A stretch of DNA of 64,000 bases from an uncultured Clostridia bacterium (GTDB lineage: Bacteria > Bacillota > Clostridia > TANB77 > CAG-508), in the NCBI GenBank assembly GCA_904387305.1, contig CAJFLB010000011.1, forward strand, positions 10,156 through 74,155. Reading direction: 5' to 3'. The position numbers and the translations under genes were made by a program. Under the pieces are notes generated by a model, which worked only from the letters and a program-made list of their open reading frames with translations, did no database searches and was not told where the DNA came from. Positions 1-12,698 of this stretch are shown here, in pieces; the first letter of the stretch is position 1; the number at the start of each line of letters is the position of its first letter.

Positions 1-851
1 ATAAGAAGAATATAGAAGGCGTAACGGAAAAATATCTCCAACCTATATTAGAAGTATTAGATAGAAAAAATATAAAAGGGGTAAGGCTATTAAAACAAGG
101 TAATAGAGTAATGCTTTTAATAGATAAAAGTCAATTAAATAGTATGAACACAGATATATTACATGCTATGAATATGGTGTATCCCAATCATGTAGTTTGT
201 ATTGAGGATATAGAAAATCCATTTGATTACGAAGAATTATATGAAGATATACCATCAAAAAGAAATAAGAAAGTAAGACCGTATCAGATATTTAATGAAT
301 ACTGGACAACAGATATAAGTAGTTACAGAGAATACTATAAACGTTATCCATTTGCTGGAATAGAATTAGATACTAGAAAATTAGGCCCAGTTATGCAATT
401 AGGATATTTTTTAGAATTTGTAAATACATTACAAACGCAAAATCCATTAGAACAAGAAGAGAGAAAAATCAGAAAAGGTGTAGAGGTATATTCACCAGAA
501 ACTTTAAGAAGATATGATGAATATATTAAGCAAGGATGCCCTAATAAACAAGGAATAAGTCTTTGGCTAATATATAATGAAGCCATTCAAGATGATGTGT
601 CTAATGGATTAGAATTAAAAGGAGATCCTTATTTTAATAGAGAAGTTAGAATGTATTTTAATGCAGACAAGGGGATTACACGAAAACTTAGAATGGGACT
701 TTCACCAGAAAGAATGAAAATGAATGTAGATAATTATATTGCAAGTAAACAGCATAAAGCCAATGAAGAACATAGTATACAAGAGGATGATATATTTGAA
801 GCAGCTGAAATACCAGAAGCACCATCTACATCCAGAATACCAGAATTGTAA
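1..851 (+). CDS. hypothetical protein, 5'-truncated at window edge
   Basis: The frame of the 111..851 ORF stays open back to nt 3 (KKNIEGVTEKYLQPILEVLDRKNIKGVRLLKQGNRV before the first Met), so the gene starts upstream of the window. No recognisable motif. Confidence 0.5.
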   Translation, partial: KKNIEGVTEKYLQPILEVLDRKNIKGVRLLKQGNRVMLLIDKSQLNSMNTDILHAMNMVYPNHVVCIEDIENPFDYEELYEDIPSKRNKKVRPYQIFNEYWTTDISSYREYYKRYPFAGIELDTRKLGPVMQLGYFLEFVNTLQTQNPLEQEERKIRKGVEVYSPETLRRYDEYIKQGCPNKQGISLWLIYNEAIQDDVSNGLELKGDPYFNREVRMYFNADKGITRKLRMGLSPERMKMNVDNYIASKQHKANEEHSIQEDDIFEAAEIPEAPSTSRIPEL

Positions 852-876
852 TATAAAAAAGAAAGGAGAAGCATTT

Positions 877-1596
877 TTGGAGGAAATACGATTACAAAAA
901 TATCTAGCAGAAGCAGGAATTGCTTCAAGAAGAAAAGCAGAAGAACGTATCTTACAAGGAAAAGTTCAAGTAAATGGAAAAGTTGTAACAGAATTAGGAA
1001 CAAAAGTGCAACCTGGAAAAGATGAAGTGAAATATGAAAACAAAATTGTGCAAATAGAAAATAAGAAAATATATATTTTACTAAACAAACCAATTGGATA
1101 TGTAACCACTGTAAAAGATCAATTTGACCGTGATTCTGTTTTAGATTTAGTAAAAATAAAAGAAAGATTAGTACCAGTAGGAAGATTAGATATGTATACA
1201 TCAGGAGCTTTAATTCTTACAAATGATGGGGATTTTGTGTATAAAGTAACACACCCCAAACATGAAATTAACAAGACATATACAGTTACGTTAAAAGGAA
1301 TTATCAGTAAAGAAAATATAGAAAATTTAAGAACAGGTGTGGATATTGGAGGATATATTACAAAGCCTGCAAAGGTAAAGATATTAAAAACAGATGAAGA
1401 AAAACAGATAACAAGATTAGAAATTATCATACATGAAGGAAAAAATAGACAGGTAAGAAAGATGTGTGAAGCAATTGGACATAAAGTACTTGCCTTACAC
1501 AGAAGTGCGATTGCAGGCATTGGTGTGAAAGATATAGAACTCGGAAAATGGAGATATTTGTCGAAAGAAGAAGTGAAAAAAATATTACAAGACTAA
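877..1596 (+). CDS. rluB: pseudouridine synthase, RsuA/RluB family (S4 RNA-binding domain plus catalytic domain)
   Basis: N-terminus IRLQKYLAEAGIASRRKAEERILQGKVQVNGKVV is an S4 domain. GRLDMYTSGALILTNDG is the catalytic Asp motif. TTG start at 877, in frame with ORF 739..1596, follows RBS AAAGGAGAA (860-868). Confidence 0.85.
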   Translation: MEEIRLQKYLAEAGIASRRKAEERILQGKVQVNGKVVTELGTKVQPGKDEVKYENKIVQIENKKIYILLNKPIGYVTTVKDQFDRDSVLDLVKIKERLVPVGRLDMYTSGALILTNDGDFVYKVTHPKHEINKTYTVTLKGIISKENIENLRTGVDIGGYITKPAKVKILKTDEEKQITRLEIIIHEGKNRQVRKMCEAIGHKVLALHRSAIAGIGVKDIELGKWRYLSKEEVKKILQD

Positions 1597-1621
1597 AACA
1601 CAAGATTTACTTGTGTTTTTC
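1597..1621 (+). terminator. rho-independent terminator after rluB
   Basis: aacacaag-attta-cttgtgtt stem-loop followed by a T-run. Confidence 0.7.
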
Positions 1622-1864
1622 TACATTTTGTGATTTAATATATATAATTTTAATTTATATATTTTATTCTAAATTTTATCATAAATTTTAAAATCAAAAA
1701 AATTTCCAAAAGTAAGTTTAAAATTTGTTATGTGAGGAGGTGATAATGTCATTTATCAGTTTACATATAAAAACTATATTCAGTGTATTCACAATATCAA
1801 ACAAAAGGACTATTTAGATTTACAAGAAGAGAGTGAAAAATATAGTATTTTAATCGGAAATGAT

Positions 1865-2356
1865 TTGAATACAAGACTTAAAAACATTATTGAATATTTA
1901 TTTAAAGATAAAGAAAGAATTTGCTTTTTTCTTAATCGTTTTTTAGATTGTTATGAAAAAGTAGAAAAAGAAAAATTGGTATATATGGATTTTTATAAAG
2001 GAAAGAAAGGTATAAAAATTATATACAAGCATTCAAAAAAACAAATATTTTATGTAATTATGTATCAGCAAGAAATTTTTCTTGATTTATCATATATTGT
2101 TTTACAAGAATGTATAAAAATCATCCAGAATGCTAAACAAAAAAATGTTAAAAATATGATTATTATTCCTATTGTGATATATGTTAAAGAAAATGTATAT
2201 CCTTATGGAAAAGCAATGAAACGATGTTTTCAGATAACAACCTATGATAATCATATATTAGAATTAAAGTATAATTTAATGAATTTATCAAAATTTTCAA
2301 AACAACCTAAGATGAAAAATACTATATTAGAAGAGTTAATATATATAGAAAATTAA
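1865..2356 (+). CDS. Rpn/YhgA-like (PD-(D/E)XK, transposase_31-like) protein, probably catalytically degenerate
   Basis: The pattern LFKDKERICFFLNRFL ... IIYK ... YVIMYQQ ... MIIIPIVIYVKENVY parallels Rpn-family blocks (F.N.FL, DIIYK, LEFQ, PIVLYNG). The acidic catalytic positions are replaced. TTG start; the frame is open upstream to 1736. Confidence 0.35.
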   Translation: MNTRLKNIIEYLFKDKERICFFLNRFLDCYEKVEKEKLVYMDFYKGKKGIKIIYKHSKKQIFYVIMYQQEIFLDLSYIVLQECIKIIQNAKQKNVKNMIIIPIVIYVKENVYPYGKAMKRCFQITTYDNHILELKYNLMNLSKFSKQPKMKNTILEELIYIEN

Positions 2357-2372
2357 AATAGGATTTGAAGGT

Positions 2373-2410
2373 AATAGAGATGTGTTAAGACACCATCTCT
2401 ATTTATTTTA
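2373..2410 (+). terminator. rho-independent terminator
   Basis: aatagagatgtg / caccatctctatt stem followed by a T-rich tail. Confidence 0.6.
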
Positions 2411-2476
2411 CATAAAATATATTAATGACAAAATAAATGACAGAGGTATCAAAAGATTAGAAAGGAATGAAACTGC

Positions 2477-3244
2477 ATGAAAACCATATTAGAGATAAAA
2501 AATATTTGTAAAACCTATCAAAGTAAAGAAGGGGAAATTTTAGCGCTAGATAATATTTGTTTTAGAGTAAAAGAAGGAGAATTTGTATCTATTATAGGCC
2601 CTAGTGGTTGCGGAAAATCCACTCTACTATCTATCATTAGTGGGTTAGAAGAAAAAACAAAAGGAGAAATCTACATAGATAATAAAAAAGTAGAAGGCAT
2701 TTCAGAAGAAGTAGGATATATGTTACAAAAAGATTGTTTATTAGAATGGAGAAATATATGGAGTAATAGCATATTAGGACTAGAGCTAAAAGGGAAATTA
2801 GATGAAACAAGCAAAAAATATGTAGAAAATTTATTAAAAAAATATAATCTTTATGATTTTAAAGATAAATATCCATCTGAGCTATCTGGAGGAATGAGAC
2901 AAAGAGCAGCTTTAATTAGAACTTTAGCAACAAAACCAAAAATTTTGCTACTAGATGAAGCATTTTCAGCACTAGATTATCAAACAAGAATCATGGTAAC
3001 AAATGATATTTATTCTATATTAAGAAAAGAAAATATGACAGCAATTATTGTAACACATGACATTTCAGAAGCGATTAGTATGTCTGATAGAGTTGTGGTA
3101 TTAACCAAAAGACCAGGGAAAGTAAAAGATATTTATACAATTGATTTTGAGATTGAAAATAGGAATCCCATCAATGTAAGAGAAAGTCCTAAATTTAGTG
3201 GATATTTTAATACTCTATGGAAGGAGTTGGGAGTTGATGAATAA
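2477..3244 (+). CDS. ABC transporter ATP-binding protein (NitT/TauT, sulfonate/nitrate/HMP type)
   Basis: Walker A GPSGCGKST, signature LSGGMRQRA, Walker B ILLLDEAFSALD, H-loop VTHD. Confidence 0.9.
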   Translation: MKTILEIKNICKTYQSKEGEILALDNICFRVKEGEFVSIIGPSGCGKSTLLSIISGLEEKTKGEIYIDNKKVEGISEEVGYMLQKDCLLEWRNIWSNSILGLELKGKLDETSKKYVENLLKKYNLYDFKDKYPSELSGGMRQRAALIRTLATKPKILLLDEAFSALDYQTRIMVTNDIYSILRKENMTAIIVTHDISEAISMSDRVVVLTKRPGKVKDIYTIDFEIENRNPINVRESPKFSGYFNTLWKELGVDE

Positions 3245-4043
3245 TTCGTTATCACAGGAAAGAAAACAATATATCAAACATAATCGAAAAAGAAAAATAC
3301 TGGTATTTACAACACAGGTAGCAATACTAATTGGATTTTTGGCGATATGGGAAATATTAGCAGATATGAATGTGATAGATAGTTTTATCATGAGTCAGCC
3401 AAGTAGAATATGGGAAACACTAACTAACTTAGGTTCAAATGATTTGTTAATGCATATTAAAGTAACTGTATATGAGACAGTTGTTGGATTTTTGATAGGA
3501 ACCATTTTAGGAACAATCATTGCCATTATATTATGGTGGTCTAGATTTCTTTCAGATGTGTTAGAACCTTATTTAGTCGTATTAAATAGTCTACCGAAAG
3601 TTGCTTTAGGACCAGTGATTATCATTTGGGTAGGAGCAGGAACACCAGCCATTATTGTGATGGCAGTTGCGATTTCATTAGTTGTTACCATATTAGAAAA
3701 TTTAAATGGATTTATAAAAACAGATAAAGATTTAATTAAAATGGCAAAAACATTTAAAGCTACAAAATTACAAATATTAACGAAAATTGTTATACCAGCC
3801 AATATTTCTACTTTTATTAATTCTTTAAAAGTCAGTATAGGACTTTCTTTAGTAGGTGTCATCTCTGGAGAATTCTTAGTATCTAAAGCAGGTTTAGGAT
3901 ATTTGATTGTGTATGGTGGGCAAGTATTTAAATTAGATTTGGTTATGGCAAGTGTGATTATACTTGGTGTTGTAGCAGGATTAATGTATTTAGCTGTATT
4001 ATTGCTAGAAAAAATCATATTGAAATCTAAAAAATTTCAATAA
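3237..4043 (+). CDS. ABC transporter permease (NitT/TauT family, BPD_transp_1)
   Basis: Multi-TM protein whose ATG at 3237 overlaps the ATPase stop (ATGA coupling). Typical SsuC/TauC-like LPKVALGPVIIIWVG and EAA-like region. Confidence 0.85.
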   Translation: MNNSLSQERKQYIKHNRKRKILVFTTQVAILIGFLAIWEILADMNVIDSFIMSQPSRIWETLTNLGSNDLLMHIKVTVYETVVGFLIGTILGTIIAIILWWSRFLSDVLEPYLVVLNSLPKVALGPVIIIWVGAGTPAIIVMAVAISLVVTILENLNGFIKTDKDLIKMAKTFKATKLQILTKIVIPANISTFINSLKVSIGLSLVGVISGEFLVSKAGLGYLIVYGGQVFKLDLVMASVIILGVVAGLMYLAVLLLEKIILKSKKFQ

Positions 4044-4055
4044 TGCAAAATATGA

Positions 4056-4195
4056 AAAAGACATAATTCTATGAAAGAAAGTTACAGTTTAGCTCTTATA
4101 CATTTTTATTATTTTTTACACCTTGTGTGTTGCAAAATAATAAAAATGTATAAGAGTTAAACTGTAACAAAAAATTTAGAAATATGTCTTTTTTA
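4056..4195. repeat. about 140-bp near-perfect palindrome (long hairpin, also terminator-like)
   Basis: Left arm 4056-4115 (aaaagacataattctatgaaagaaagttacagtttagctcttatacatttttattatttt) is the reverse complement of 4134-4193. The element ends in a T-run. Confidence 0.8.
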
Positions 4196-4284
4196 TTTAT
4201 ATATAATTCTCAAAATGTGAAAAATGTGTTAAGATATAAATAACAAAATTTTAAGTGAATATAAAAGAGAGGGGAAAAACAGAT

Positions 4285-4494
4285 ATGAATAAATTAAGTA
4301 AAATATTATTGTTAGTAATTGTAATTTTGGTAATTGCATTAGGAATCATGACTTCTTCATATTTTAAAGTAAAAAAAGCTGCACAAGAAAATCTTAGTTT
4401 ATATTTAGAAGCTGAGAAAGAGATAATGCAATTAAATGAAGAAAATTTTAAATTACAAAATGGGAATATGGAAGAATCAGAAAATAATAAATAG
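4285..4494 (+). CDS. small membrane-anchored coiled-coil protein
   Basis: ATG at 4285 follows RBS AGAGAGGGG. N-terminal TM LSKILLLVIVILVIALGIM, then a charged helical tail. Confidence 0.5.
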   Translation: MNKLSKILLLVIVILVIALGIMTSSYFKVKKAAQENLSLYLEAEKEIMQLNEENFKLQNGNMEESENNK

Positions 4495-4607
4495 TTTTTT
4501 AGATTAAAGCAATCATATTTCTTTGATTTACATAAAATAAAACCTATAAAAGGCTTGTTTTTTTCGCAAATTATGGTAAAATATGTATAGTATGAAAAGG
4601 AGAAATT

Positions 4608-5717
4608 ATGTTATTACCAGTAAAATCATTAAAAGAAGTAAAAGATGAAATAAACGAGCAGTTAGGTGTGGCAAAAAAATTAAATCCGAAAAATGGATAT
4701 TATTTTTATGCTAATGGGAAAAGAGAATATAAAATGCTTGATACGAAAGTAGAGGCAACAATGTGTCGCAAAGATGACAATGGATTAATATCAGCATATT
4801 TTAAGTCTAAGAAAGGGTATAATTCTGATTTAAAAAATAATAAGAATTTTGCTAATCATTATGCAGAATATATAGCATACTTAATTTTAAAACAATTAGG
4901 AAAAAAAGTTTGCAAGGAAGAGTTAGGAGAAATCAAGATAAAAAATAAGTATAGTAATAAAGTCATAAATATAGAAGGTGTTTTAAGTCAGTATGAAGTC
5001 ACAGTGACAGAAAGTTTTATACCATTAATGACTATTGTAGAAAGTTATAAAGAAGCTTACCCTAAAAAATATAAAGAAATGATAACACGAGGTAAGACAG
5101 ATTCAGAAGATAATTATGTAAATATTGAAATTATATTAAAAACTTTAGAAGAATATTACAAAAAAAATAGACAAAGTGATAAAATTCCACAAATGCGAAA
5201 AGAATTTTTTGATATGTGTATGTTTGATATGATATTTGCCAATAGGGATAGAAGTGATGACAATTTTGGTGTAAAAGTGAATCAAGTAACAAATGAGATT
5301 AATTTTTATCCATTATTTGATAATGAACAAATTTTAGGAATGCAAGAAGAGAAAGCTGATATTGTAAGATATTTATCAAGTGAAAAAGAATATCAAAAAT
5401 TTAAAAAGGAGAATTTAACATCATGTATTGGTATACCAGGAAATCCAAAAAAAATAGAACCAACTACATTGTTAAAATATTTATTAGAACATTATTATGA
5501 GGAAACAATAGATTCATTAAATGATATAGGAAGATATACATATCAAGATTTGGAAGAAGTTTTAGAAGTGTGTCGAGGTTTATCTGAAGAACATAAAGCA
5601 TTTGCTAAAAAAATATATTTGGAAAGGCAACAGGAAATAAATAATACAATCAAAGATTTCGAGCAAAGAAAGAATGAGGAACATCCGAAACAAGGTGATG
5701 ATTCATTAGAATTATAA
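4608..5717 (+). CDS. HipA_C / PI3-4-kinase-like domain protein, paralogue of 6107..7156, with variant catalytic loop DRSDDN
   Basis: FKSKK, ANHYAEY, FANRDRSDDNFG (5241-5264) and YPLFDNEQILG align with the same blocks in the downstream paralogue and with the HipA catalytic loop D-x-H-x-x-N and Mg-binding Asp. RBS AAAGGAGAA. Confidence 0.6.
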   Translation: MLLPVKSLKEVKDEINEQLGVAKKLNPKNGYYFYANGKREYKMLDTKVEATMCRKDDNGLISAYFKSKKGYNSDLKNNKNFANHYAEYIAYLILKQLGKKVCKEELGEIKIKNKYSNKVINIEGVLSQYEVTVTESFIPLMTIVESYKEAYPKKYKEMITRGKTDSEDNYVNIEIILKTLEEYYKKNRQSDKIPQMRKEFFDMCMFDMIFANRDRSDDNFGVKVNQVTNEINFYPLFDNEQILGMQEEKADIVRYLSSEKEYQKFKKENLTSCIGIPGNPKKIEPTTLLKYLLEHYYEETIDSLNDIGRYTYQDLEEVLEVCRGLSEEHKAFAKKIYLERQQEINNTIKDFEQRKNEEHPKQGDDSLEL

Positions 5718-5733
5718 TAAAATGGGAGGATAA

Positions 5734-6105
5734 ATGGAGTACTTATATTTAAAATGGGTAGATTATAGAACAAATAAAAAATATTTAATAGGTGCATTAT
5801 TTAGGGATAAAGAAAAGAGAAAGTATTATTTTAAAATGAGTAGAAAACATGTGGAAAAAGCAATTCAAGAAAAAGTAATATCAGAAGCTTTATTACCCTT
5901 TTATGATTTAGATAAGATTTATGAAAGTGATGAAATTTTTGCCATTTTTAAAGTGAGATTACCTAAAATTGAAACATATTCTCAAGAGGAAATGAAAGAA
6001 TTATTAGAAGATTTAGAAATGGATGAATATGATGAGTTTGAGTATTTAAGGAAAACAAAGGGGATGTTGGTAACAGATAAATATATATTAGAAGAGGAGA
6101 AATAA
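5734..6105 (+). CDS. small HipS-like protein (resembles the HipA N-terminal subdomain)
   Basis: IGALFRDKEKRKYYFK ... LLPFYDL ... IFAIFKVRLPK ... YDEFEYLRKTKGMLVTDKYILEEE follows the HipA N-terminal/HipS pattern (G.L..-F.Y, LP, F..LLP, D.F.LL...G.D..GA). Its stop is 1 nt from the next start. RBS GGGAGGA. Confidence 0.45.
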   Translation: MEYLYLKWVDYRTNKKYLIGALFRDKEKRKYYFKMSRKHVEKAIQEKVISEALLPFYDLDKIYESDEIFAIFKVRLPKIETYSQEEMKELLEDLEMDEYDEFEYLRKTKGMLVTDKYILEEEK

Positions 6106-6106
6106 T

Positions 6107-7156
6107 ATGTTCGAATTTAGAAATATTGATGGATTTATACCATATAAGTTCGAAACAGTGGGAGAGTTAAAAGGAAAAAGATGGTATATAGATTCTAAAA
6201 AACGTAAAATGGGATTATTTAAGCCGAAAAGATATGAATTTAAAGACCAAAAGGTATTTTGTGCAAACCATTATGGAGAGTTTGTAGGAAATGCTTTAGC
6301 AAGGGAGGCAGACATACCAACTTGCAAAGCAGAATTAGCACATCTCAGTAAATATTATGCCAATATACATAAAGAAAGAAATCATGGAACACCAGAGGAA
6401 AAAGATGGTTGTATCATTTATAGTCAATTAGGAAAAGAAGATACACTAGAAGCAGGAAAAATTACAATAGAAAGTTTTAAAGAAAAATATAGAGAAGACT
6501 ATGAAAGAATTACAAAAGATGATAAACATAAAGGAGATGCCAATGATAATGTAGAATTAGTTCTTGCCTCTAGCATTTCTCGAGTAGCAGATTTTTACAG
6601 AAGGAAAGGGATTTATTCAGAAGAATTTATACAAGCCAAAATACAACAAACTAGAAAAAGATTCATAGAAATGATAGTATATGATTGTTTATATGGAAAC
6701 TATGATAGACATGATGAGAATTGGTCTATGCAAATCAAAGGAAATGAGAATATTGATTTATATCCATTATATGACAATGAAAGAGTATTAGGTCTTTATG
6801 AAAATCAAAATTTTATTGAAGATACATTAAGAAATCAAGAAGTGGAGAAGAAAACAGATGAAAACTTCTTCTCTAGGATGCATGTACCAGGAGAAACCAA
6901 GAAAAATTCAACATATAAAGAGATGTTAGAGTATTTGATGAATACATATCCACAAGAGACAAGAGAAATGTTACAAAAGATGTTAAGTAGACATACAGCT
7001 GAAAGTATAAGAAAACATTTAGAAAAATGTACGGGATTACCTAGCGTATATATTGATTTTGGAACGCAAATGTATACATATAGAGAGGCTTTTGCAAAAG
7101 AATTGTTAGAGCGTAATAAAAATATTGAATTATTAAAAGAAGGTCAAGAAAGATAG
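6107..7156 (+). CDS. HipA_C-like serine/threonine kinase lacking the HipA N-terminal domain (HipT-like)
   Basis: GLFKPK (ATP Lys), ANHYGEF, canonical catalytic loop GNYDRHDENWS (6704-6721), LYPLYDNERVLG (Mg-binding Asp). Translationally coupled to 5734..6105. Confidence 0.65.
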   Translation: MFEFRNIDGFIPYKFETVGELKGKRWYIDSKKRKMGLFKPKRYEFKDQKVFCANHYGEFVGNALAREADIPTCKAELAHLSKYYANIHKERNHGTPEEKDGCIIYSQLGKEDTLEAGKITIESFKEKYREDYERITKDDKHKGDANDNVELVLASSISRVADFYRRKGIYSEEFIQAKIQQTRKRFIEMIVYDCLYGNYDRHDENWSMQIKGNENIDLYPLYDNERVLGLYENQNFIEDTLRNQEVEKKTDENFFSRMHVPGETKKNSTYKEMLEYLMNTYPQETREMLQKMLSRHTAESIRKHLEKCTGLPSVYIDFGTQMYTYREAFAKELLERNKNIELLKEGQER

Positions 7157-7262
7157 AAGAATTGCTATATAACATAGTAATTCTTTTTTACATTATAAAA
7201 AAGTAAATTTCACACATCTTTATTATAAACATAAAATATATAAGAAAATAAGGAGGTGTGAA

Positions 7263-8282
7263 ATGAGTAAAAAAGGAAGAATTGTGCTAGTATTAGTAAT
7301 CTTAGTCATTGCCGTTGTTATTGCCGTTGTCATTATAAAAAGTCAAAAAGGAAATGGTAAAAATAATTTACAAACCATCAATGTTAGTGAGGTAACACGT
7401 TCTGTTTTTTATGCACCACAATATGTAGCAATCAATAATGGATACTTTAAAGAAAAAGGACTGGAAATTGAATTATCTACTGGTCAAGGTGCAGATGCAG
7501 TTATGACAAGTGTATTGGCTAATCAAGTAGAAATTGGATTTGCAGGTCCAGAAGCTTCTATATATGTATATAATGAAGGAAAAGAAGACTATACAGAAGT
7601 ATTTGCTCAATTAACAAAAAAAGATGGTTCTTTATTAGTTTCTAGAACAGAGGAAGAAAATTTTAGTTGGGAAAATTTAAAAGGCAAAACAGTCATTCCA
7701 GGAAGAAAAGGTGGAGTACCATATATGACATTAGAATATGTATTAAAAAAGAATGGAATTAATCCAGAAACAGATGTGGTATTAGATGACAGTATTAAAT
7801 TTGATTTAATGGCAGGTGCATTTGCAGCTGGAAATGCTGACTATGTAACGTTATTTGAACCAACAGCGTCTTTAACAGAGCAAGAAGGAAAAGGATATGT
7901 TGTGGCATCAGTTGGAGAAGAGGCAGGAGAAATACCATATACAGCGTATTTTGCTAAAAAAAGTTATATTGATGCAAATGAAGATATTATTCAAAGATTT
8001 ACAGACGCGATTTATGAAGGGCAAACTTGGGTGAAGGAACATACAGCAGAAGAGATTGCAACTGTTATACAAGACTTTTTCCCAGATACGAGTATTGAAA
8101 TGTTAACAGAGGCAATACAAACATATAAAGATATTGATGCATGGAATGAAACACCTGTATTAGAAGAAGAAAGTTTCAATAGACTTCAAGAAGTAATGAC
8201 CTTGGCTGGAGAATTAGAAAATGCAGCACCTTATGACAAAGTTGTTAATAATACGTATGCATTTAAAAGTATTGAAAATTAA
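7263..8282 (+). CDS. ABC transporter substrate-binding protein (NMT1/THI5-like, SsuA/ThiY type)
   Basis: N-terminal TM anchor, then VFYAPQYVAINNGYFKEKGLEIEL, typical of the NMT1/THI5 periplasmic-binding fold. Logical partner of 2477..4043. Confidence 0.8.
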   Translation: MSKKGRIVLVLVILVIAVVIAVVIIKSQKGNGKNNLQTINVSEVTRSVFYAPQYVAINNGYFKEKGLEIELSTGQGADAVMTSVLANQVEIGFAGPEASIYVYNEGKEDYTEVFAQLTKKDGSLLVSRTEEENFSWENLKGKTVIPGRKGGVPYMTLEYVLKKNGINPETDVVLDDSIKFDLMAGAFAAGNADYVTLFEPTASLTEQEGKGYVVASVGEEAGEIPYTAYFAKKSYIDANEDIIQRFTDAIYEGQTWVKEHTAEEIATVIQDFFPDTSIEMLTEAIQTYKDIDAWNETPVLEEESFNRLQEVMTLAGELENAAPYDKVVNNTYAFKSIEN

Positions 8283-8309
8283 TTTTTACTATTATGTAAA
8301 AAAAATCTA

Positions 8310-8338
8310 TTGACAAATAAAACTCATAATGTTATATT
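8310..8338 (+). promoter_or_regulatory. sigma-A type promoter for the XRE regulator
   Basis: TTGACA (8310-8315), 17-nt spacer with TG extension, TATATT (8333-8338). Confidence 0.5.
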
Positions 8339-8362
8339 TACCAATGAAGGAGAAGTGATAAT

Positions 8363-8695
8363 ATGAACATGGATTTTTCTAATATTGGTAAAAGAATACA
8401 AGCAACAAGAATGGAAAATAAAATTAGTCAAAAAGAAATGGGAGATTTCTTAGGAATATCTATGAATTATATAAGCAGATTAGAAAATGGAAAAACGAAA
8501 GTAGAATTAAAAACATTTATGAAAATATGCGATTTTTTAAATATTTCTATTTATGATATTCTAAACGAAAAAAGTGATCATATAATAAGATATATGGATA
8601 AAGAATTATATGAGTTAATTATTAAATGTAATTTAGAGAAACAAAGATTAATATGTAATATGGTAAAATTATTGATAAAAAACCAAGTGGTATAA
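8363..8695 (+). CDS. XRE-family helix-turn-helix transcriptional regulator
   Basis: ISQKEMGDFLGISMNYISRLENGKTKVELKTFMKICDFLNISIYDIL is a classic HTH_3 motif. Confidence 0.85.
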   Translation: MNMDFSNIGKRIQATRMENKISQKEMGDFLGISMNYISRLENGKTKVELKTFMKICDFLNISIYDILNEKSDHIIRYMDKELYELIIKCNLEKQRLICNMVKLLIKNQVV

Positions 8696-8710
8696 ATTGA
8701 AAATTCTGGA

Positions 8711-8737
8711 AAAAAGTCAAAAATTTGACTTTTTTTT
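8711..8737 (+). terminator. rho-independent terminator
   Basis: aagtcaaa-aa-tttgactt followed by a T-run. Confidence 0.7.
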
Positions 8738-8805
8738 AGATTTATAGTATACTATTTCGGTACTACTTTTTTTAAAATATAAAATATTTAAGGAGAAGGA
8801 TTACA

Positions 8806-10113
8806 ATGAAAAGTAAAATGAATATAAAAAGCATTTTTATCATGGCAATTATATCATTAGCTAGTTTGCTTTTTATAAATATCAGCTTAGCAGCCAATAC
8901 TGGAACAATCAACGTAGATGTTGCTAATTTAAGAGAGACAGCAGACGCTGAAAGTAAAATCTTGGAGCAAATTACTTTGAATCAAGAAGTCGAAATTGTA
9001 GGAGAAGAAGGTGACTGGTACCAAGTTACATACAACAAAATTACAGGATATGTAAGTAAAGAACTAGTTACGGTAAATTCAAACTCACAAACTACAGAAA
9101 GTAATAATCAAGTAAGTGAAAATATTACACAAGAAAACACTACAGTAGAAGTAAATACAACAGAAGAAGGTACTGAGACAAGCAGTACAGAAGAAATAAC
9201 ATTGGGAGAATATAAAATTTCAGAAAATACAAGACTAAAATTAATTCCATCAATTAATGCAACAGATGTGATAGAATTGAAAGCAGATGAAACAGTTACT
9301 GTCACAGAAATCATGAATGGATGGGCATGTGTAGAAACACAAACAACAAAAGGTTGGTTAAGAAAAGATAAATTGAAAAAAGACGAGCCAGTGGAGGAAT
9401 CAGTAGAAGAGGTACAAGAAGAACAACAAGAACCAGCTCAAGAAACACCAATCAAAACACAATATGTAAATTCTACAACTGTTAATGTAAGACAAGAAGC
9501 AAATACTTCTAGTACAATTGTAACGACTGTAGATTTGAATACAGAAGTTCAAGTTTATAGTGAAGAAAATGGCTGGAGCAAAGTAAAAGTAAATAATGTA
9601 GAAGGATATATTTCATCTTCATTATTATCAAATAGTAAACAAGAAACATCACGAAGCCAGAGTACTTCTAGAAGAACAAGTAGTACAAAAACAACCACAA
9701 AGGCAACAAGTCAAACAACAACACAAACAACAAATGTACCAGCATCTGGTAATGGCTCATCAATTGTAGCAACAGCAAAACAATATTTAGGATCTAAATA
9801 TACTTATGGAGGAAGCTCACCAAGTACAGGATTTGACTGTTCAGGATTTACTTCATATGTATTTAAACAACATGGAATATCTTTAAATAGAACTGCTGCA
9901 GCACAATATAGCAATGGAGTTGCTGTTAGTAGAGCAAACTTACAACCAGGTGACTTAGTTATGTTTGGAAAATCTGGAATTAATCATGTGGCAATATATA
10001 TCGGTGGAGGTCAGATTATTCATGCATCAACACCATCAACAGGAGTTAGAATCGATTCTTTAAGCACAGGATATTATAATAATAATTATGTAGGTGCAAG
10101 AAGAGTACTATAA
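8806..10113 (+). CDS. secreted cell-wall hydrolase: three SH3b domains plus a C-terminal NlpC/P60 (C40) peptidase
   Basis: Signal peptide, repeated VNVRE..A...S.I......V...GWYKV..N...GYV blocks, Ser/Thr-rich linker, and catalytic DCSGFTSYVF ... HVAIYIGGGQIIHA. Confidence 0.85.
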   Translation: MKSKMNIKSIFIMAIISLASLLFINISLAANTGTINVDVANLRETADAESKILEQITLNQEVEIVGEEGDWYQVTYNKITGYVSKELVTVNSNSQTTESNNQVSENITQENTTVEVNTTEEGTETSSTEEITLGEYKISENTRLKLIPSINATDVIELKADETVTVTEIMNGWACVETQTTKGWLRKDKLKKDEPVEESVEEVQEEQQEPAQETPIKTQYVNSTTVNVRQEANTSSTIVTTVDLNTEVQVYSEENGWSKVKVNNVEGYISSSLLSNSKQETSRSQSTSRRTSSTKTTTKATSQTTTQTTNVPASGNGSSIVATAKQYLGSKYTYGGSSPSTGFDCSGFTSYVFKQHGISLNRTAAAQYSNGVAVSRANLQPGDLVMFGKSGINHVAIYIGGGQIIHASTPSTGVRIDSLSTGYYNNNYVGARRVL

Positions 10114-12698
10114 TGATAATGAAATTGGAGGAGATAATATTAAAAGACCAATTGTCGTTATGGTTATAGGATATATCATTGGAATTATATGGGGGCTATA
10201 CTTTGATTTTAGTATAGTCCTTTTATATATCTTAATAACCTTTCTTTATGGTTTAAAAATATGTTTTAAAAACAAAAAACATAAAGAATTTCAAATTTTA
10301 TCTATCTATCGATATGTTCGATATATCAAATTAATTTTAACGAAACAAGTTATTTTTTTAATCGCTATTAGTTCTATTATTTCTAATACAATTCTCATAT
10401 TCCAAGAAAATCGATATGAAAATTTATATCTTGAAGAAAATATCATAGTAGAAGGGATTATTGTTAGTAATCAAGAAGAAAGAGAATATAAAAATCGATA
10501 TAAAGTAAAAGTATTAACAGTAAATGATTCTAATAAATATCAATCTACACAAATTTATATAGAAGTAAAAAAAGATATCCAATTTGAGTATGGTGACAAA
10601 GTACGATTGCAAGGAGAATTTCGAAAAGGAAGTGAACAAAGAAATACAGGTGGATTTGACTATCAACTATATTTAAAATCTATCAATATATATGGTACAT
10701 TAAAAGTCGAAAACTATCAAAAAATATCTTCGGACAATGTAAGTAAGATTGAAAAAAGTATTAATAAAATCAAGTTAACCATTACAAAAAATATTGAAAA
10801 AGTATTAAAAAAAGAGGAAGAACAAATTGTAAAAGGATTAATCTTAGGAGATACCACAGTTTTAGAAGAAGAGCTAAAAGAAAAATTTCAAATAGCGAAT
10901 ATTTCTCATGTTTTAGCAGTATCTGGTATGCATATTATTTATATCATTATTGGAATAGAAATGATTTTTAAGAAATGGTTAGGAAAAAGAAATGTGAAAT
11001 ATGTTGTTATCATAGGATTAGTATTCTATATGAGTATAACAGGTTTTACAAGTTCGATTGTAAGAGCAGGTATTATGGGAATCATGAGTATAGTAGCTTT
11101 TTTAGTGTATAGAAAAAACGATATTTGGACATCGATTGCCATTTCATTAGGAATCATATTAATACAAAATCCATATGCCATTACAGGTGTAGGATTACAA
11201 TTATCGTATTTAGGTACGATTGGGATTATCTTATTTAATAAAAATATAAAGCAATATTTGGATAATATAAAATGGATAAAAGATAATATCCAAATAAAAA
11301 GAAGTAAACGAATTTCTAAGATTGTAGAAAATTTAAAAGACATGGTATCTGTTACACTTTCAGCACAAATGCTGATTCTTCCTATCATGCTTTACCATTT
11401 TAATATGCTAGGAATCTATTTTGTGATAACCAATATTTTGGTAAGTAGTATTATTGGTCCAATTATGTTTTTAGCTATTATTTTTGTTTTTAGTTCATTT
11501 ATTCATTTACAAATTTCACAGTTTATTTCTATTTTTTTATCATTTGGTATTAAGTGCTTAATACAAATTTCTAATTTAGCCAATTTACCATTTTCAAAAA
11601 TATATGTTTCTACACCAAGCATTTTATTTATCATTATTTATTACATTATGATTTTGGCGGGGAATCAGATATACACGATTTATGTAAACAAATATTTAAA
11701 TAATACGAAAAGAAGAGTAAAAAATCTAATTGCACTTATGAAATATAGGTTATATGAAAAAAAGAAGAAGACGAGGAAAATATATCAGAAAATTTTAAAA
11801 GAAAGAAATGTAAAAGCATGTATTTTAAGAACGTACAAAGCAATTTTTTTAATAATTTTCTTGATAGGAATTTATCAATTTCCTAAAAATTTAGAAATTC
11901 ATTTTTTAGATGTAGGGCAAGGAGATTCTTGTTTTATTATAACACCAAATCATAAAACGATTTTAATTGATGGAGGGGGAAGTACTTCAAATACATTTGA
12001 TGTGGGAAAAGATACAGTAATACCGTATTTACTAGATAAAGGATATACAAAAATAGATTATATATTTATTTCCCATTTTGACCAAGATCATGTAGGTGGT
12101 ATATTGACTGTATTAAAAGAATTCAAGGTAGGGCAAATATTTATTAGTAAACAAGGAGAAGAAAGTGAAAATTATGAAACATTTTTAAATATTGCGGAAC
12201 AAAAACAATTAAAAGTACGAGAAGTAAAGATGGGTGACAAAATTACAATAGGAGATATTACTTTTCATATTTTGTGGCCAATAGAGAAACAAATAGAAGA
12301 AAATATATTAAATAATAATGCTATAGTTATGAAATTACAATATAAAAGTTTTAGCATGTTATTTACTGGTGATATAGAAGAAGTGGCAGAAAAGAAGATT
12401 TTAGATACATATAAAAATCATCTAGATATATTAAAATCTTCTGTCTTAAAAGTAGCCCACCATGGTTCTAAAAGTTCATCAACCAATGAATTCTTGGAAG
12501 CAGTAAATAGCAAGGTGGCTATTATTGGAGTAGGAGAAAATAATATGTTTGGACATCCAAACAATGCTGTTTTAGAAAGATTACAATCGTTTCGGCATGC
12601 AGATTTTTAGAACAGATGAAAACGGAGAAATTAGTATAAGTGTTAACCATAAAGGTAGGATTCATGTAAAGAAGTTTATAGAGAAATATAGCGACTAA
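10094..12698 (+). pseudogene. comEC: DNA internalization competence protein ComEC/Rec2 (competence domain plus metallo-beta-lactamase domain), with an apparent frameshift near 12590
   Basis: Polytopic competence domain and MBL motif FISHFDQDHVGG ... VAHHGS. The annotated frame stops at 12610, but the conserved C-terminus GMQIFRTDENGEISISVNHKGRIHV continues in another frame to the TAA at 12696-12698. The start is uncertain (GTG 10094, ATT 10139 after GGAGGAG, or ATG 10160). Confidence 0.75.

What the first reader, a model, noticed from the sequence alone, without database searches (positions are those of the whole stretch)
4608..7156. Kinase-like paralogue / HipS-like small protein / HipT-like kinase: an atypical three-gene HipA-family module
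- **Two paralogous kinases.** The 369-aa and 349-aa proteins share the blocks FK(S/P)K, ANHY(A/G)E, DR(S/H)D(D/E)N and YPL(F/Y)DNE..LG. These correspond to the ATP-Lys, catalytic loop (D-x-H-x-x-N, shared with PI3/4-kinases as DRHxxN) and Mg-binding Asp of HipA_C kinases.
- **Missing N-terminal subdomain.** Neither protein carries the HipA N-terminal subdomain.
- **A separate HipS-like protein.** A 123-aa protein follows the pattern of that subdomain (IGAL..KYYFK, LLPF, FKVRLP, YDEFEYLRKTKGMLVTDKYILEEE). It is encoded between the two kinases and is translationally coupled to the second one (stop 6105, start 6107).
- **Comparison with HipBST.** This recalls HipBST, where HipS is the split-off N-terminal subdomain acting as antitoxin. 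Here the first gene is a second kinase-like protein rather than a HipB HTH protein.
- **Novelty.** I do not recognise this kinase-HipS-kinase order as a described arrangement. It is a candidate toxin-antitoxin or phage-defence module.
Basis: partly seen in the sequence, partly recalled or inferred. Interest (0 to 1): 0.8.

Follow-up and report, generated by a model that had tools for sequence, protein, structure and literature searches.

The report
Two-kinase HipA-family module with HipS
This is a real, conserved three-gene operon in uncultured gut Clostridia: two fast-evolving HipA-type protein kinases flank a small, highly conserved HipS-like 'lid' protein, a duplicated form of a known but untested toxin-antitoxin / phage-defence candidate.

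Summary
ORFs 4608-5717 (K1, 369 aa), 5734-6105 (S, 123 aa) and 6107-7156 (K2, 349 aa) exist.

- **Kinases:** K1 and K2 are paralogues (29% identity, E 2e-28) with the HipA/CtkA kinase fold and no N-subdomain 1.
- **S:** it is a stand-alone HipS-like (Couple_hipA) domain.
- **Closest known kind:** not HipBST but the short-kinase hipJS/hipIN group of Gerdes et al. 2021, which is PADLOC's untested candidate PDC-M03.
- **Conservation:** K1-S-K2 order holds in all 45 loci carrying all three genes. It usually lies between uvrB and uvrA; in the window's clade it lies between ABC-transporter genes.
- **Selection:** all three genes are under purifying selection. The kinases evolve about five times faster (dN/dS 0.26-0.29) than S (0.05).
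- **Catalytic residues:** invariant in K2. K1 has Ser for the catalytic-loop His in this lineage.
- **Extras:** some genomes add a catalytically dead third paralogue, alone or paired with a second S.

Most likely S restrains one or both growth-arresting kinases, but toxicity, defence and pairing are untested. I rate it a new variant of a known kind, of moderate interest.

The parts
4563..4591 (+). Promoter-like site (TTCGCA-17-TATAGT) upstream of K1. This is weak evidence only.
   Evidence: The consensus scan scored it 9 of 12, and such sites are no more frequent here than in shuffled sequence. The sequence is shown.
4608..5717 (+). K1: 369-aa HipA-family kinase paralogue. Putative ATP Lys is K66; the catalytic loop is D214-R-S216-D-D-N219; the Mg-binding Asp is D238. 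Ser216 replaces the family's His.
   Evidence: - ORF confirmed.
- PADLOC PDC-M03A, E 8.5e-28.
- 29% identical to K2, E 2e-28.
- AlphaFold2 model pLDDT 91; Foldseek finds CtkA at E 2.4e-11 and HipT at 9e-6.
- Motif conservation across orthologues.
- dN/dS 0.26.
5734..6105 (+). S: 123-aa stand-alone HipS-like (Couple_hipA) domain with no HIRAN domain.
   Evidence: - Matches the N-terminal half of PADLOC PDC-M03B, E 4.5e-19.
- Distant homologues carry Pfam Couple_hipA over the aligned region.
- The family profile hits HipS and the HipA N-terminus in the PDB.
- dN/dS 0.05.
6107..7156 (+). K2: 349-aa HipA-family kinase with a canonical catalytic loop D200-R-H202-D-E-N205, Mg-binding Asp D223 and Lys K39. 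It is translationally coupled to S.
   Evidence: - Pfam HipA_C, 32.0 bits against a cut-off of 30.5.
- PADLOC PDC-M03A, E 4e-26.
- Sequence alignment to CtkA.
- Motifs invariant in 35 orthologues.
- One-base gap after the S stop.
- dN/dS 0.29.
7155..7189 (+). Terminator-like hairpin with a U-tract, starting in the K2 stop codon. It closes the operon.
   Evidence: The RNA fold gives -12.8 kcal/mol, z = -5.8, and none of 200 shuffles folds as well. The consensus scan missed it because the stem is A+U-rich.

Best explanation
**What it is.** The locus is a self-contained operon that encodes a split HipA-type Ser/Thr kinase system in duplicated form. S is the detached N-subdomain-1 'lid' of HipA, a HipS-like domain. 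K1 and K2 are two anciently duplicated core kinases that lack that lid.

**How it most likely works.**
- S binds the kinase core or cores near the active site and holds them inactive, as HipS does for HipT.
- When S is displaced or outpaced, for example by phage infection or another stress, K2 and probably K1 phosphorylate an essential cellular target.
- By analogy with HipA and HipT, that target would be a translation factor such as an aminoacyl-tRNA synthetase, so growth stops.
- K1-S copies the hipJS gene order and S-K2 copies the hipS-hipT order, so one S probably serves two kinases.

**Shown here:** homology, fold, gene order, conservation, selection and catalytic-residue status.

**Inferred only:** S-kinase binding, inhibition, toxicity, the trigger and the target.
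For: **Kinase identity.**
- K2 passes Pfam HipA_C.
- Both kinases match PADLOC PDC-M03A at E about 1e-26 to 1e-28.
- The K1 model matches CtkA, HipT and HipA.

**S identity.**
- S matches the N-terminal half of PDC-M03B.
- 31 of 48 S-family members hit Pfam Couple_hipA.
- 11 of the 12 PDB hits of the S-family profile are HipS or the HipA N-terminus.

**HipS precedent.** HipS inhibits HipT by binding at the Gly-rich loop (PMC10627512).

**Conservation and coupling.**
- K1-S-K2 order holds in all 45 loci with all three genes, from 35 species-level genomes plus metagenomes, in at least three genomic contexts.
- The gap from the S stop to the K2 start is 0-5 bases in 42 of 45 loci.

**Selection.**
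- All three genes are under purifying selection.
- K2 catalytic residues are invariant, and the K1 Asp, Asn and Asp are invariant.
- The kinases average only 43-47% identity between genomes whose UvrB averages 89%. Such rapid divergence is typical of conflict systems.

**Loss pattern.** The one decayed locus (L047) has lost both kinases and kept a truncated S. No locus has a kinase without S.

**Wider family associated with defence and mobile elements.**
- A hipJS-like pair lies beside type I-B CRISPR-Cas, and an orphan S lies beside QatABCD.
- A hipIN pair lies beside the integrase of C. difficile phage phiCDKH02.
- PHROG families 8728 and 8026 match the kinases and S.
Against: - Nothing here shows toxicity, binding or defence, and PDC-M03 itself is an untested candidate.
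- The module sits at a fixed chromosomal site in a narrow clade. No mobile-element genes lie beside it, and it has no plasmid hit and no close phage or viral-contig hit.
- S has no residue equivalent to HipS Trp65. Its only Trp is W8, and the aligned segment reads RLPKIE.
- The module has no DNA-binding autoregulator: no HipB and no HIRAN domain.
- S is as constrained as the housekeeping flanking genes (dN/dS 0.05), which is unusual for an antitoxin.
- Separate S-like plus dead-kinase (X) pairs are also under purifying selection. S-type proteins therefore do something besides neutralising an active toxin.
- The distance correlations tie S to K1, not K2 (partial r 0.67 against 0.007), while the gene spacing ties S to K2. 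Which kinase S regulates is unresolved.
Confidence: 0.55

Rival explanations
1. A lineage-specific signalling or housekeeping kinase system that is not a toxin. S would be the obligatory structural lid that completes each kinase, as N-subdomain 1 does inside active HipA. K1 and K2 would phosphorylate physiological substrates. The placement between uvrB and uvrA might tie expression to DNA-damage repair.
For: - The module sits at the same site, uvrB-K1-S-K2-uvrA, in most species of the clade, and the K1 and K2 subtrees are congruent, which indicates vertical inheritance.
- In L013 the gap from the uvrB stop to the K1 start is only 5 bases.
- S is under very strong purifying selection.
- The module has no autoregulator and no mobile-element neighbours, and is absent from plasmids and viral contigs.
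- HipA-family kinases without a partner antitoxin exist, namely YjjJ/HipH and CtkA.
- Conserved S-plus-pseudokinase pairs fit scaffolding or signalling roles.
Against: - The kinases diverge very fast relative to the flanks: 43-47% identity against 87-89% for UvrA and UvrB.
- The module is dispensable: it is lost in L047.
- It has moved to another locus in the window's clade, and it stays there when the flanking ABC genes are absent (L018).
- No GAACN4GTTC LexA-type box was found in any locus.
- In the window it has its own terminator and a promoter-like site.
- Relatives lie in defence neighbourhoods and prophages.
Confidence: 0.25
2. K1 is not a second effector. It would be a regulatory or decoy paralogue that controls K2 or S by scaffolding, trans-phosphorylation or sensing, filling the third-component slot that HipB fills in HipBST. 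In the window's lineage it would be on its way to becoming a pseudokinase.
For: - The catalytic-loop His is Ser in the window's clade, Asn or Ala in others, and Ser in the outgroup L055. In K2 it is invariant.
- The fully dead paralogue X branches from the K1 lineage and is kept under purifying selection.
- S distances track K1 distances after controlling for K2.
- K1 carries a distinct N-terminal extension.
Against: - Most K1 orthologues keep the full DRHDEN plus FDNE set, and the catalytic Asp, Asn and Asp are invariant. That argues for retained catalysis.
- K1 and K2 have the same dN/dS.
- There is no evidence for a K1-K2 contact.
Confidence: 0.15
3. The module is a decaying duplicate or an annotation artefact with no current function.
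For: - K1 has no Pfam hit.
- One species has a degraded locus.
- The outgroups L055 and L056 show frameshifted kinase genes.
Against: - The ORFs are intact in dozens of species, with dN/dS between 0.05 and 0.29.
- The K1 fold prediction is confident.
- Motifs are conserved.
Confidence: 0.02

Closest known systems
hipJS and hipIN modules (HipJ/HipI kinases of clade XI, Gerdes et al. 2021, PMC8262856), which PADLOC lists as candidate PDC-M03
   Same: - Both have a short core HipA-family kinase without N-subdomain 1, followed by a gene for a HipS-like domain.
- The PADLOC A and B models hit K1, K2 and S.
- S aligns along its full length with the N-terminal domain of HipN-type proteins.
- Like HipS of hipJS, S has no HIRAN domain.
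   Different: - A second kinase gene follows S and is translationally coupled to it. It is conserved in every locus examined, so the module has three genes rather than two.
- The kinases are longer: 349-369 aa against 279-321 aa.
- There is no HIRAN domain, so S is not HipN.
- Some genomes carry extra dead-kinase paralogues.
- Neither hipJS/hipIN nor PDC-M03 has been tested experimentally.
HipBST (E. coli O127, Legionella, Haemophilus)
   Same: - Both are three-gene modules with a HipS-like gene immediately upstream of a kinase that lacks N-subdomain 1.
- The S-family profile detects HipS structures 7czo, 7ab3 and 7ab4.
- The K1 model matches HipT.
   Different: - There is no HipB HTH gene. 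The first gene is a kinase paralogue.
- S lacks the Trp65 wedge residue.
- The kinases are much closer to CtkA and PDC-M03A than to HipT.
- No conserved Ser/Thr lies next to the Gly-rich-loop-like motif.
CtkA (Helicobacter pylori JHP940, PDB 3akj/3akk/3akl)
   Same: - It is the best match for both kinases by sequence (E 1e-3 and 4e-3).
- It is also the best structural match (E 2.4e-11, TM 0.75 normalised to the target).
- It shares the GN(x)DRH(x)xNW and (Y/F)D motifs.
   Different: In the PDB entry CtkA is described as a single proinflammatory kinase. From my own knowledge, which I did not check here, it is a secreted protein with no HipS-like partner and no paralogue pair.
HipBA (E. coli K-12 HipA)
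   Same: - Same kinase superfamily.
- S corresponds to HipA residues 9-92, which are N-subdomain 1.
- The only full-length Foldseek match of the S model is a HipA N-terminus (TM 0.57), though it is not significant.
   Different: - The lid is a separate protein rather than fused to the kinase.
- There is no HipB.
- There are two kinases.

Membership tests
HipA-like kinase superfamily (Pfam HipA_C, PF07804) | Significant match to the HipA_C profile or fold | tested here: met
   - K2 scores 32.0 bits against a cut-off of 30.5.
- K1 has no Pfam hit, but it is a paralogue of K2 (E 2e-28).
- The K1 model (pLDDT 91) matches CtkA, HipT and HipA.
HipA-like kinase superfamily (Pfam HipA_C, PF07804) | Catalytic loop D-x-H-x-x-N plus a downstream Mg-binding Asp, in K2 | tested here: met
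   K2 has D200-R-H-D-E-N205 and D223, invariant in 35 unique orthologues.
HipA-like kinase superfamily (Pfam HipA_C, PF07804) | Catalytic loop D-x-H-x-x-N plus a downstream Mg-binding Asp, in K1 | tested here: inconclusive
   - D214, N219 and D238 are present and invariant.
- The His position is Ser216 in the window's clade. It is His in most species and Asn or Ala in a few.
- The effect on catalysis is unknown.
HipA-like kinase superfamily (Pfam HipA_C, PF07804) | Ser/Thr kinase activity | not testable with these tools
   This needs an in-vitro kinase assay.
HipBST | HipB HTH gene as the first cistron | tested here: not met
   - The first gene is the kinase K1.
- The nearest HTH_3 gene (8363-8695) lies beyond the SBP gene and beyond the terminator.
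- That gene is not detected in the uvrB-uvrA-context loci.
HipBST | HipS (Couple_hipA) gene immediately upstream of a kinase that lacks N-subdomain 1 | tested here: met
   The S-K2 gap is one base in the window and 0-5 bases in 42 of 45 loci. The identity of S rests.
HipBST | HipS Trp65 that wedges into the Gly-rich-loop cavity of the kinase | tested here: not met
   - Profile position 75 aligns to HipS residue 63, so Trp65 corresponds to S Glu80.
- That segment of S reads RLPKIE, and the only Trp in S is W8.
- The role of Trp65 comes from PMC10627512.
HipBST | Kinase belongs to the HipT clade | tested here: not met
   - Sequence searches of the PDB find CtkA but not HipT.
- Foldseek TM is 0.75 to CtkA against 0.44-0.49 to HipT.
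- The PADLOC hits are to PDC-M03A.
- I did not build a formal tree that includes HipT.
hipJS / hipIN (clade XI), PADLOC PDC-M03 | Short core kinase matched by PDC-M03A-type models and lacking N-subdomain 1 | tested here: met
   K1 scores E 8.5e-28 and K2 scores E 4.1e-26. Neither kinase has a Couple_hipA hit.
hipJS / hipIN (clade XI), PADLOC PDC-M03 | HipS-like gene directly downstream of the kinase | tested here: met
   K1 is followed by S after 16 bases in the window and after 2-48 bases in the other loci, except one where the longest ORFs overlap.
hipJS / hipIN (clade XI), PADLOC PDC-M03 | C-terminal HIRAN domain on the HipS-like protein (HipN and the PDC-M03B architecture) | tested here: not met
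   S is 123 aa and covers only the first ~115 positions of the ~240-position PDC-M03B models. The HIRAN domain is present in distant relatives but not here. This fits the hipJS type instead.
hipJS / hipIN (clade XI), PADLOC PDC-M03 | Two-gene organisation with one kinase | tested here: not met
   A second kinase gene follows S in every locus long enough to show it.
hipJS / hipIN (clade XI), PADLOC PDC-M03 | Toxin-antitoxin or anti-phage activity | not testable with these tools
   The published families are themselves predictions.

The most novel reading that the evidence does not exclude
One slowly evolving HipS-like lid protein is shared by a pair of rapidly diversifying paralogous kinases, and catalytically dead paralogues have spun off from the K1 lineage. 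Together these would form a two-tier or guard/decoy immune sensor. K1 or X would act as bait or regulator, for example for phage anti-kinase factors or through trans-phosphorylation of K2 or S. K2 would be the executioner. No such architecture has been described for any Hip toxin-antitoxin or defence system.
Probability: 0.15. Interest if true: 0.8.

Novelty: new variant of a known kind. Interest (0 to 1): 0.55.

Why it matters
HipA-family kinases are a model for persistence and toxin-antitoxin biology, and short Hip kinases with HipS-like partners are predicted but untested defence candidates.

This module offers a natural experiment with three features:
- The same lid protein is flanked by two kinases that have co-diverged for a long time.
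- The lid is frozen while the kinases race.
- Dead-kinase derivatives are retained.

It could show how a detached N-subdomain regulates HipA-type kinases when it lacks both the HipS tryptophan wedge and a DNA-binding partner. It could also show whether kinase duplication creates regulatory layers. If it is a defence system, it adds a new architecture that is common in abundant uncultured gut Clostridia.

Tried and rejected
- **Functional link to the flanking ABC transporter: rejected.**
  - The module lies between uvrB and uvrA in most species.
  - In L018 it persists with no ABC genes around it.
  - In the window it has its own terminator.
- **SOS control through the uvrB-uvrA position: not supported.**
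  - No GAACN4GTTC box occurs in any locus, and the spacing to uvrB and uvrA is very variable.
  - The 64-kb window contains no uvrB or uvrA.
- **K1 as a generally dead pseudokinase: rejected.** Most orthologues keep DRHDEN, and only the His position varies.
- **Direct fold proof for S: inconclusive.** The model has pLDDT 76 and no Foldseek hit is significant. Only HipA 4pu4_B covers the whole domain, at TM 0.57 and E 2.9. The identity of S therefore rests on profile and transitive sequence evidence.
- **Direct Pfam and NCBIfam scans of S:** they gave only chance-level hits.
- **Presence on mobile elements:**
  - There is no plasmid hit.
  - The only phage hit is a 24%-identical hipIN kinase.
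  - IMG/VR holds only a HipN-type relative.
  - The broad alignment A3 was too divergent for a locus scan.
- **Mirror-tree test of which kinase S partners with:** it favours K1. The pairs of sequences are not independent and one deep split dominates, so I treat this as a hint only.
- **The simple terminator scan:** it missed the A+U-rich hairpin after K2, which folding then recovered.
Full report
**1. The observation**

The window is A+T-rich (about 27% G+C). The three ORFs lie on the + strand exactly as described: K1 at 4608-5717 (369 aa), S at 5734-6105 (123 aa) and K2 at 6107-7156 (349 aa).

K1 and K2 align over 287 residues at 29% identity, E 2e-28.

Each gene has a strong ribosome-binding site. 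The S stop codon is separated from the K2 ATG by a single base.

A 14-pair hairpin followed by U residues begins in the K2 stop codon. It folds at -12.8 kcal/mol with z = -5.8. A weak promoter-like site lies at 4563-4591.

The three genes therefore look like their own transcription unit. That unit sits between the ATPase and permease genes and the substrate-binding-protein gene of an NMT1-type ABC transporter.

**2. What the proteins are**

*K2.*
- It passes the Pfam HipA_C gathering threshold, 32.0 bits against 30.5.
- It aligns to the catalytic region of the HipA-like kinase CtkA.

*K1.*
- It has no Pfam hit.
- It matches the same PADLOC kinase models as K2 (PDC-M03A, E 8.5e-28 and 4.1e-26).
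- An AlphaFold2 model built from 46 homologues has pLDDT 91.
- Foldseek places that model with CtkA (E 2.4e-11, TM 0.75 normalised to the target), then HipT of HipBST (E 9e-6), then HipA.
- Neither kinase carries a HipA N-terminal domain.

*S.*
- It matches only the N-terminal ~115 positions of the ~240-position PADLOC PDC-M03B models (E 4.5e-19).
- An exhaustive HMMER search found 132 representative relatives. In the 106 with a near full-length S-like domain, 52 are stand-alone proteins of at most 145 aa and 36 carry a C-terminal extension.
- Those extensions are HIRAN domains. The region that aligns to S is Pfam Couple_hipA, the HipA N-terminal domain.
- One relative is a kinase + HipS-like + HIRAN fusion (HipL-type). 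Another is an RNase_T + HipS-like fusion.
- 31 of 48 S-family members hit Couple_hipA.
- A profile of the family finds 12 PDB sequences. Eleven are HipS (7czo, 7ab3, 7ab4) or residues 9-92 of HipA. Each E-value is marginal on its own, from 0.04 to 0.6.
- The S structure model is only moderate (pLDDT 76). Its one full-length Foldseek match is the N-terminus of a HipA, and that match is not significant.

I conclude that S is a HipS-like lid domain. The basis is transitive sequence evidence rather than fold evidence.

**3. Place among known systems**

Gerdes et al. 2021 (PMC8262856) described ten Hip gene organisations. Clade XI contains short kinases without N-subdomain 1. These are followed either by HipN (HipS-like + HIRAN, the hipIN type) or by a bare HipS (the hipJS type).

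PADLOC's PDC-M03 corresponds to this pair. The PDC systems are untested candidates predicted by guilt-by-embedding.

The window's K1-S pair has the hipJS order, and its S-K2 pair has the hipS-hipT order. None of the ten organisations has two kinases, and further literature searches found no such description.

S lacks the HipS Trp65 wedge that blocks HipT. No HTH or HIRAN domain belongs to the module.

**4. Distribution and evolution**

*Breadth.* Close homologues of all three proteins are numerous in gut metagenomes and uncultured Clostridia MAGs. A scan of species-representative genomes found 35 loci.

*Gene order.* Scripted annotation of these and the metagenome loci shows K1-S-K2 in that order in every locus carrying all three genes. 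The contexts are:
- between uvrB and uvrA in most species, including the most divergent ones (K2 only 38-42% identical);
- between ABC-transporter genes in the window's clade;
- at that same second site without the ABC genes in L018, and with different neighbours in L023.

*Divergence.* Among 14 species with the uvrB-uvrA context, mean identities are UvrB 89%, UvrA 87%, S 70%, K1 43% and K2 47%.

*Selection in the window's clade, 36 pairs.*

| Gene | Median dN/dS |
|---|---|
| ABC ATPase | 0.044 |
| ABC permease | 0.063 |
| SBP | 0.095 |
| HTH | 0.13 |
| S | 0.052 |
| K1 | 0.26 |
| K2 | 0.29 |

- All three module genes are functional.
- S is as constrained as the housekeeping flanking genes, while both kinases accumulate replacements about five times faster.
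- Synonymous divergence is mosaic along the module, which indicates recombination inside it.

*History.* A neighbour-joining tree puts all K2 in one clade and K1 plus X in the other, with broadly congruent subtrees. This points to one old duplication followed by co-divergence.

*Catalytic residues.* They are invariant in K2. In K1 the catalytic Asp, the Asn and the Mg-binding Asp are invariant, but the loop His varies. It is His in most species, Ser in the window's clade and in an outgroup, and Asn or Ala elsewhere.

**5. Variants seen elsewhere**

- Three genomes carry a second module: an S-like gene (120 aa) coupled to X, a 341-aa kinase paralogue that has lost every catalytic residue.
  - Two other loci (L001, L036) place an X gene upstream of K1.
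  - X is under purifying selection in close pairs, dN/dS 0.12-0.30.
- One species (L047) retains only a truncated S between uvrB and uvrA.
- Outside the clade:
  - L055 has a frameshifted K1-like gene, then S, then a 431-aa kinase.
  - L056 has S and then a fragmented kinase.
  - L057 has kinase then S beside a type I-B CRISPR-Cas locus.
  - L054 has an orphan S beside QatABCD.
- A hipIN pair sits next to the integrase of C. difficile phage phiCDKH02, and PHROG families exist for both components.
- The K1-S-K2 form itself was not found on plasmids, phage genomes or IMG/VR contigs.

**6. Mechanism**

*Shown:* two HipA-fold kinases without a lid, a detached lid domain between them, tight S-K2 coupling, long-term co-inheritance, purifying selection on all three genes, and rapid kinase divergence.

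*Inferred:* S binds the kinase cores at the N-subdomain-1 position and restrains them. The released kinases phosphorylate an essential target and stop growth, giving a toxin-antitoxin or abortive-infection outcome.

*For this reading:*
- the HipS-HipT precedent;
- the defence and prophage neighbourhoods of relatives;
- the fast kinase evolution;
- the loss pattern, in which kinases are lost and S is kept, and never the reverse.

*Against it:*
- the fixed chromosomal position in a narrow clade;
- the absence of mobile-element genes and of an autoregulator;
- the missing Trp wedge;
- the extreme conservation of S;
- the conserved S-pseudokinase pairs.

These points keep a non-toxic signalling role alive as the main rival.

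Which kinase S controls is unresolved. Gene spacing points to K2. Distance correlations point to K1, with partial r 0.67 against 0.007, but I treat that as a hint only.

**7. Verdict**

The reference family should be hipJS/hipIN (PDC-M03) rather than HipBST.

The two-kinase arrangement is conserved and, as far as I could find, undescribed. It is a new variant of a known but experimentally untested kind. I rate its interest as moderate. That would rise if the kinase pair and the pseudokinase derivatives prove to form a regulatory or decoy layer.

Noticed in passing
L048, L049, L051 and L052 at 7001-8390; L001 at 3786-4826; L036 at 4786-5826: There is a second kind of module: an S-like gene (120 aa) translationally coupled to X. 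X is a 341-346-aa kinase paralogue that has lost the catalytic loop and the Mg-binding Asp. It occurs in genomes that also carry K1-S-K2, or directly upstream of K1. X is under purifying selection in close pairs (dN/dS 0.12-0.30).
   Followed up: partly
L047 at 6988-8829: One species has only a truncated S (105 aa) between uvrB and uvrA. Both kinase genes are gone, and a SAICAR-synthase-like gene lies on the opposite strand.
   Followed up: partly
window 4608-7156 compared with L019, L021 and L022: Synonymous divergence is mosaic along the module. For example, window against L021 gives K1 dS 0.07 but S dS 0.43. Window against L019 gives S dS 0.07 while the ABC ATPase and SBP flanks give 0.44-0.47. 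This suggests recombination breakpoints inside the operon.
   Followed up: partly
window 2477-4043 and 7263-8282: An NMT1-type ABC transporter is split by the module, with the ATPase and permease upstream and the substrate-binding protein downstream. In L018 all three transporter genes are absent but the module remains. In L023 the neighbours differ again.
   Followed up: partly
window 4255-4494: A small predicted membrane protein (79 aa as the longest ORF, called as 69 aa in L005-L007) lies between the permease gene and K1. No such gene is called in L010-L012, where that spacer is only ~130 bases long.
   Followed up: no
window 1865-2356: A 163-aa ORF has a partial YhgA-like putative transposase match (PF04754, E 1.4e-6), just upstream of the ABC ATPase gene.
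   Followed up: no
proteins P0264 (306 aa) and P0259 (261 aa): The HipS-like (Couple_hipA) domain also occurs fused behind an RNase_T-type exonuclease domain (P0264) and behind an unassigned N-terminal region (P0259). Gerdes et al. 2021 do not list these architectures.
   Followed up: no
L054 at 1-5399; L057 at 3843-10345; L056 at 2112-6385: Relatives outside the clade show three contexts. An orphan S-like gene lies next to QatABCD. A kinase-then-S pair lies next to type I-B CRISPR-Cas genes. An S-then-fragmented-kinase pair lies directly after split hisS fragments and a RelA_SpoT-domain gene.
   Followed up: partly
L053 at 4007-6805 (Clostridioides phage phiCDKH02, PP767789.1): A canonical hipIN pair, annotated as a HipA domain protein plus a HIRAN domain protein, sits between the lysogeny-control genes and the integrase of a temperate C. 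difficile phage.
   Followed up: partly
L001-L003 and L036 at the uvrA position; L004 at the uvrB position: uvrA is called as two ORFs (584 + 374-382 aa) in L001, L002 and L036, and uvrB (510 aa) is shorter than the ~650 aa seen elsewhere. In L004 uvrB is split into 313 + 198 aa. These may be frameshifts or assembly errors in the repair genes that flank the module.
   Followed up: no
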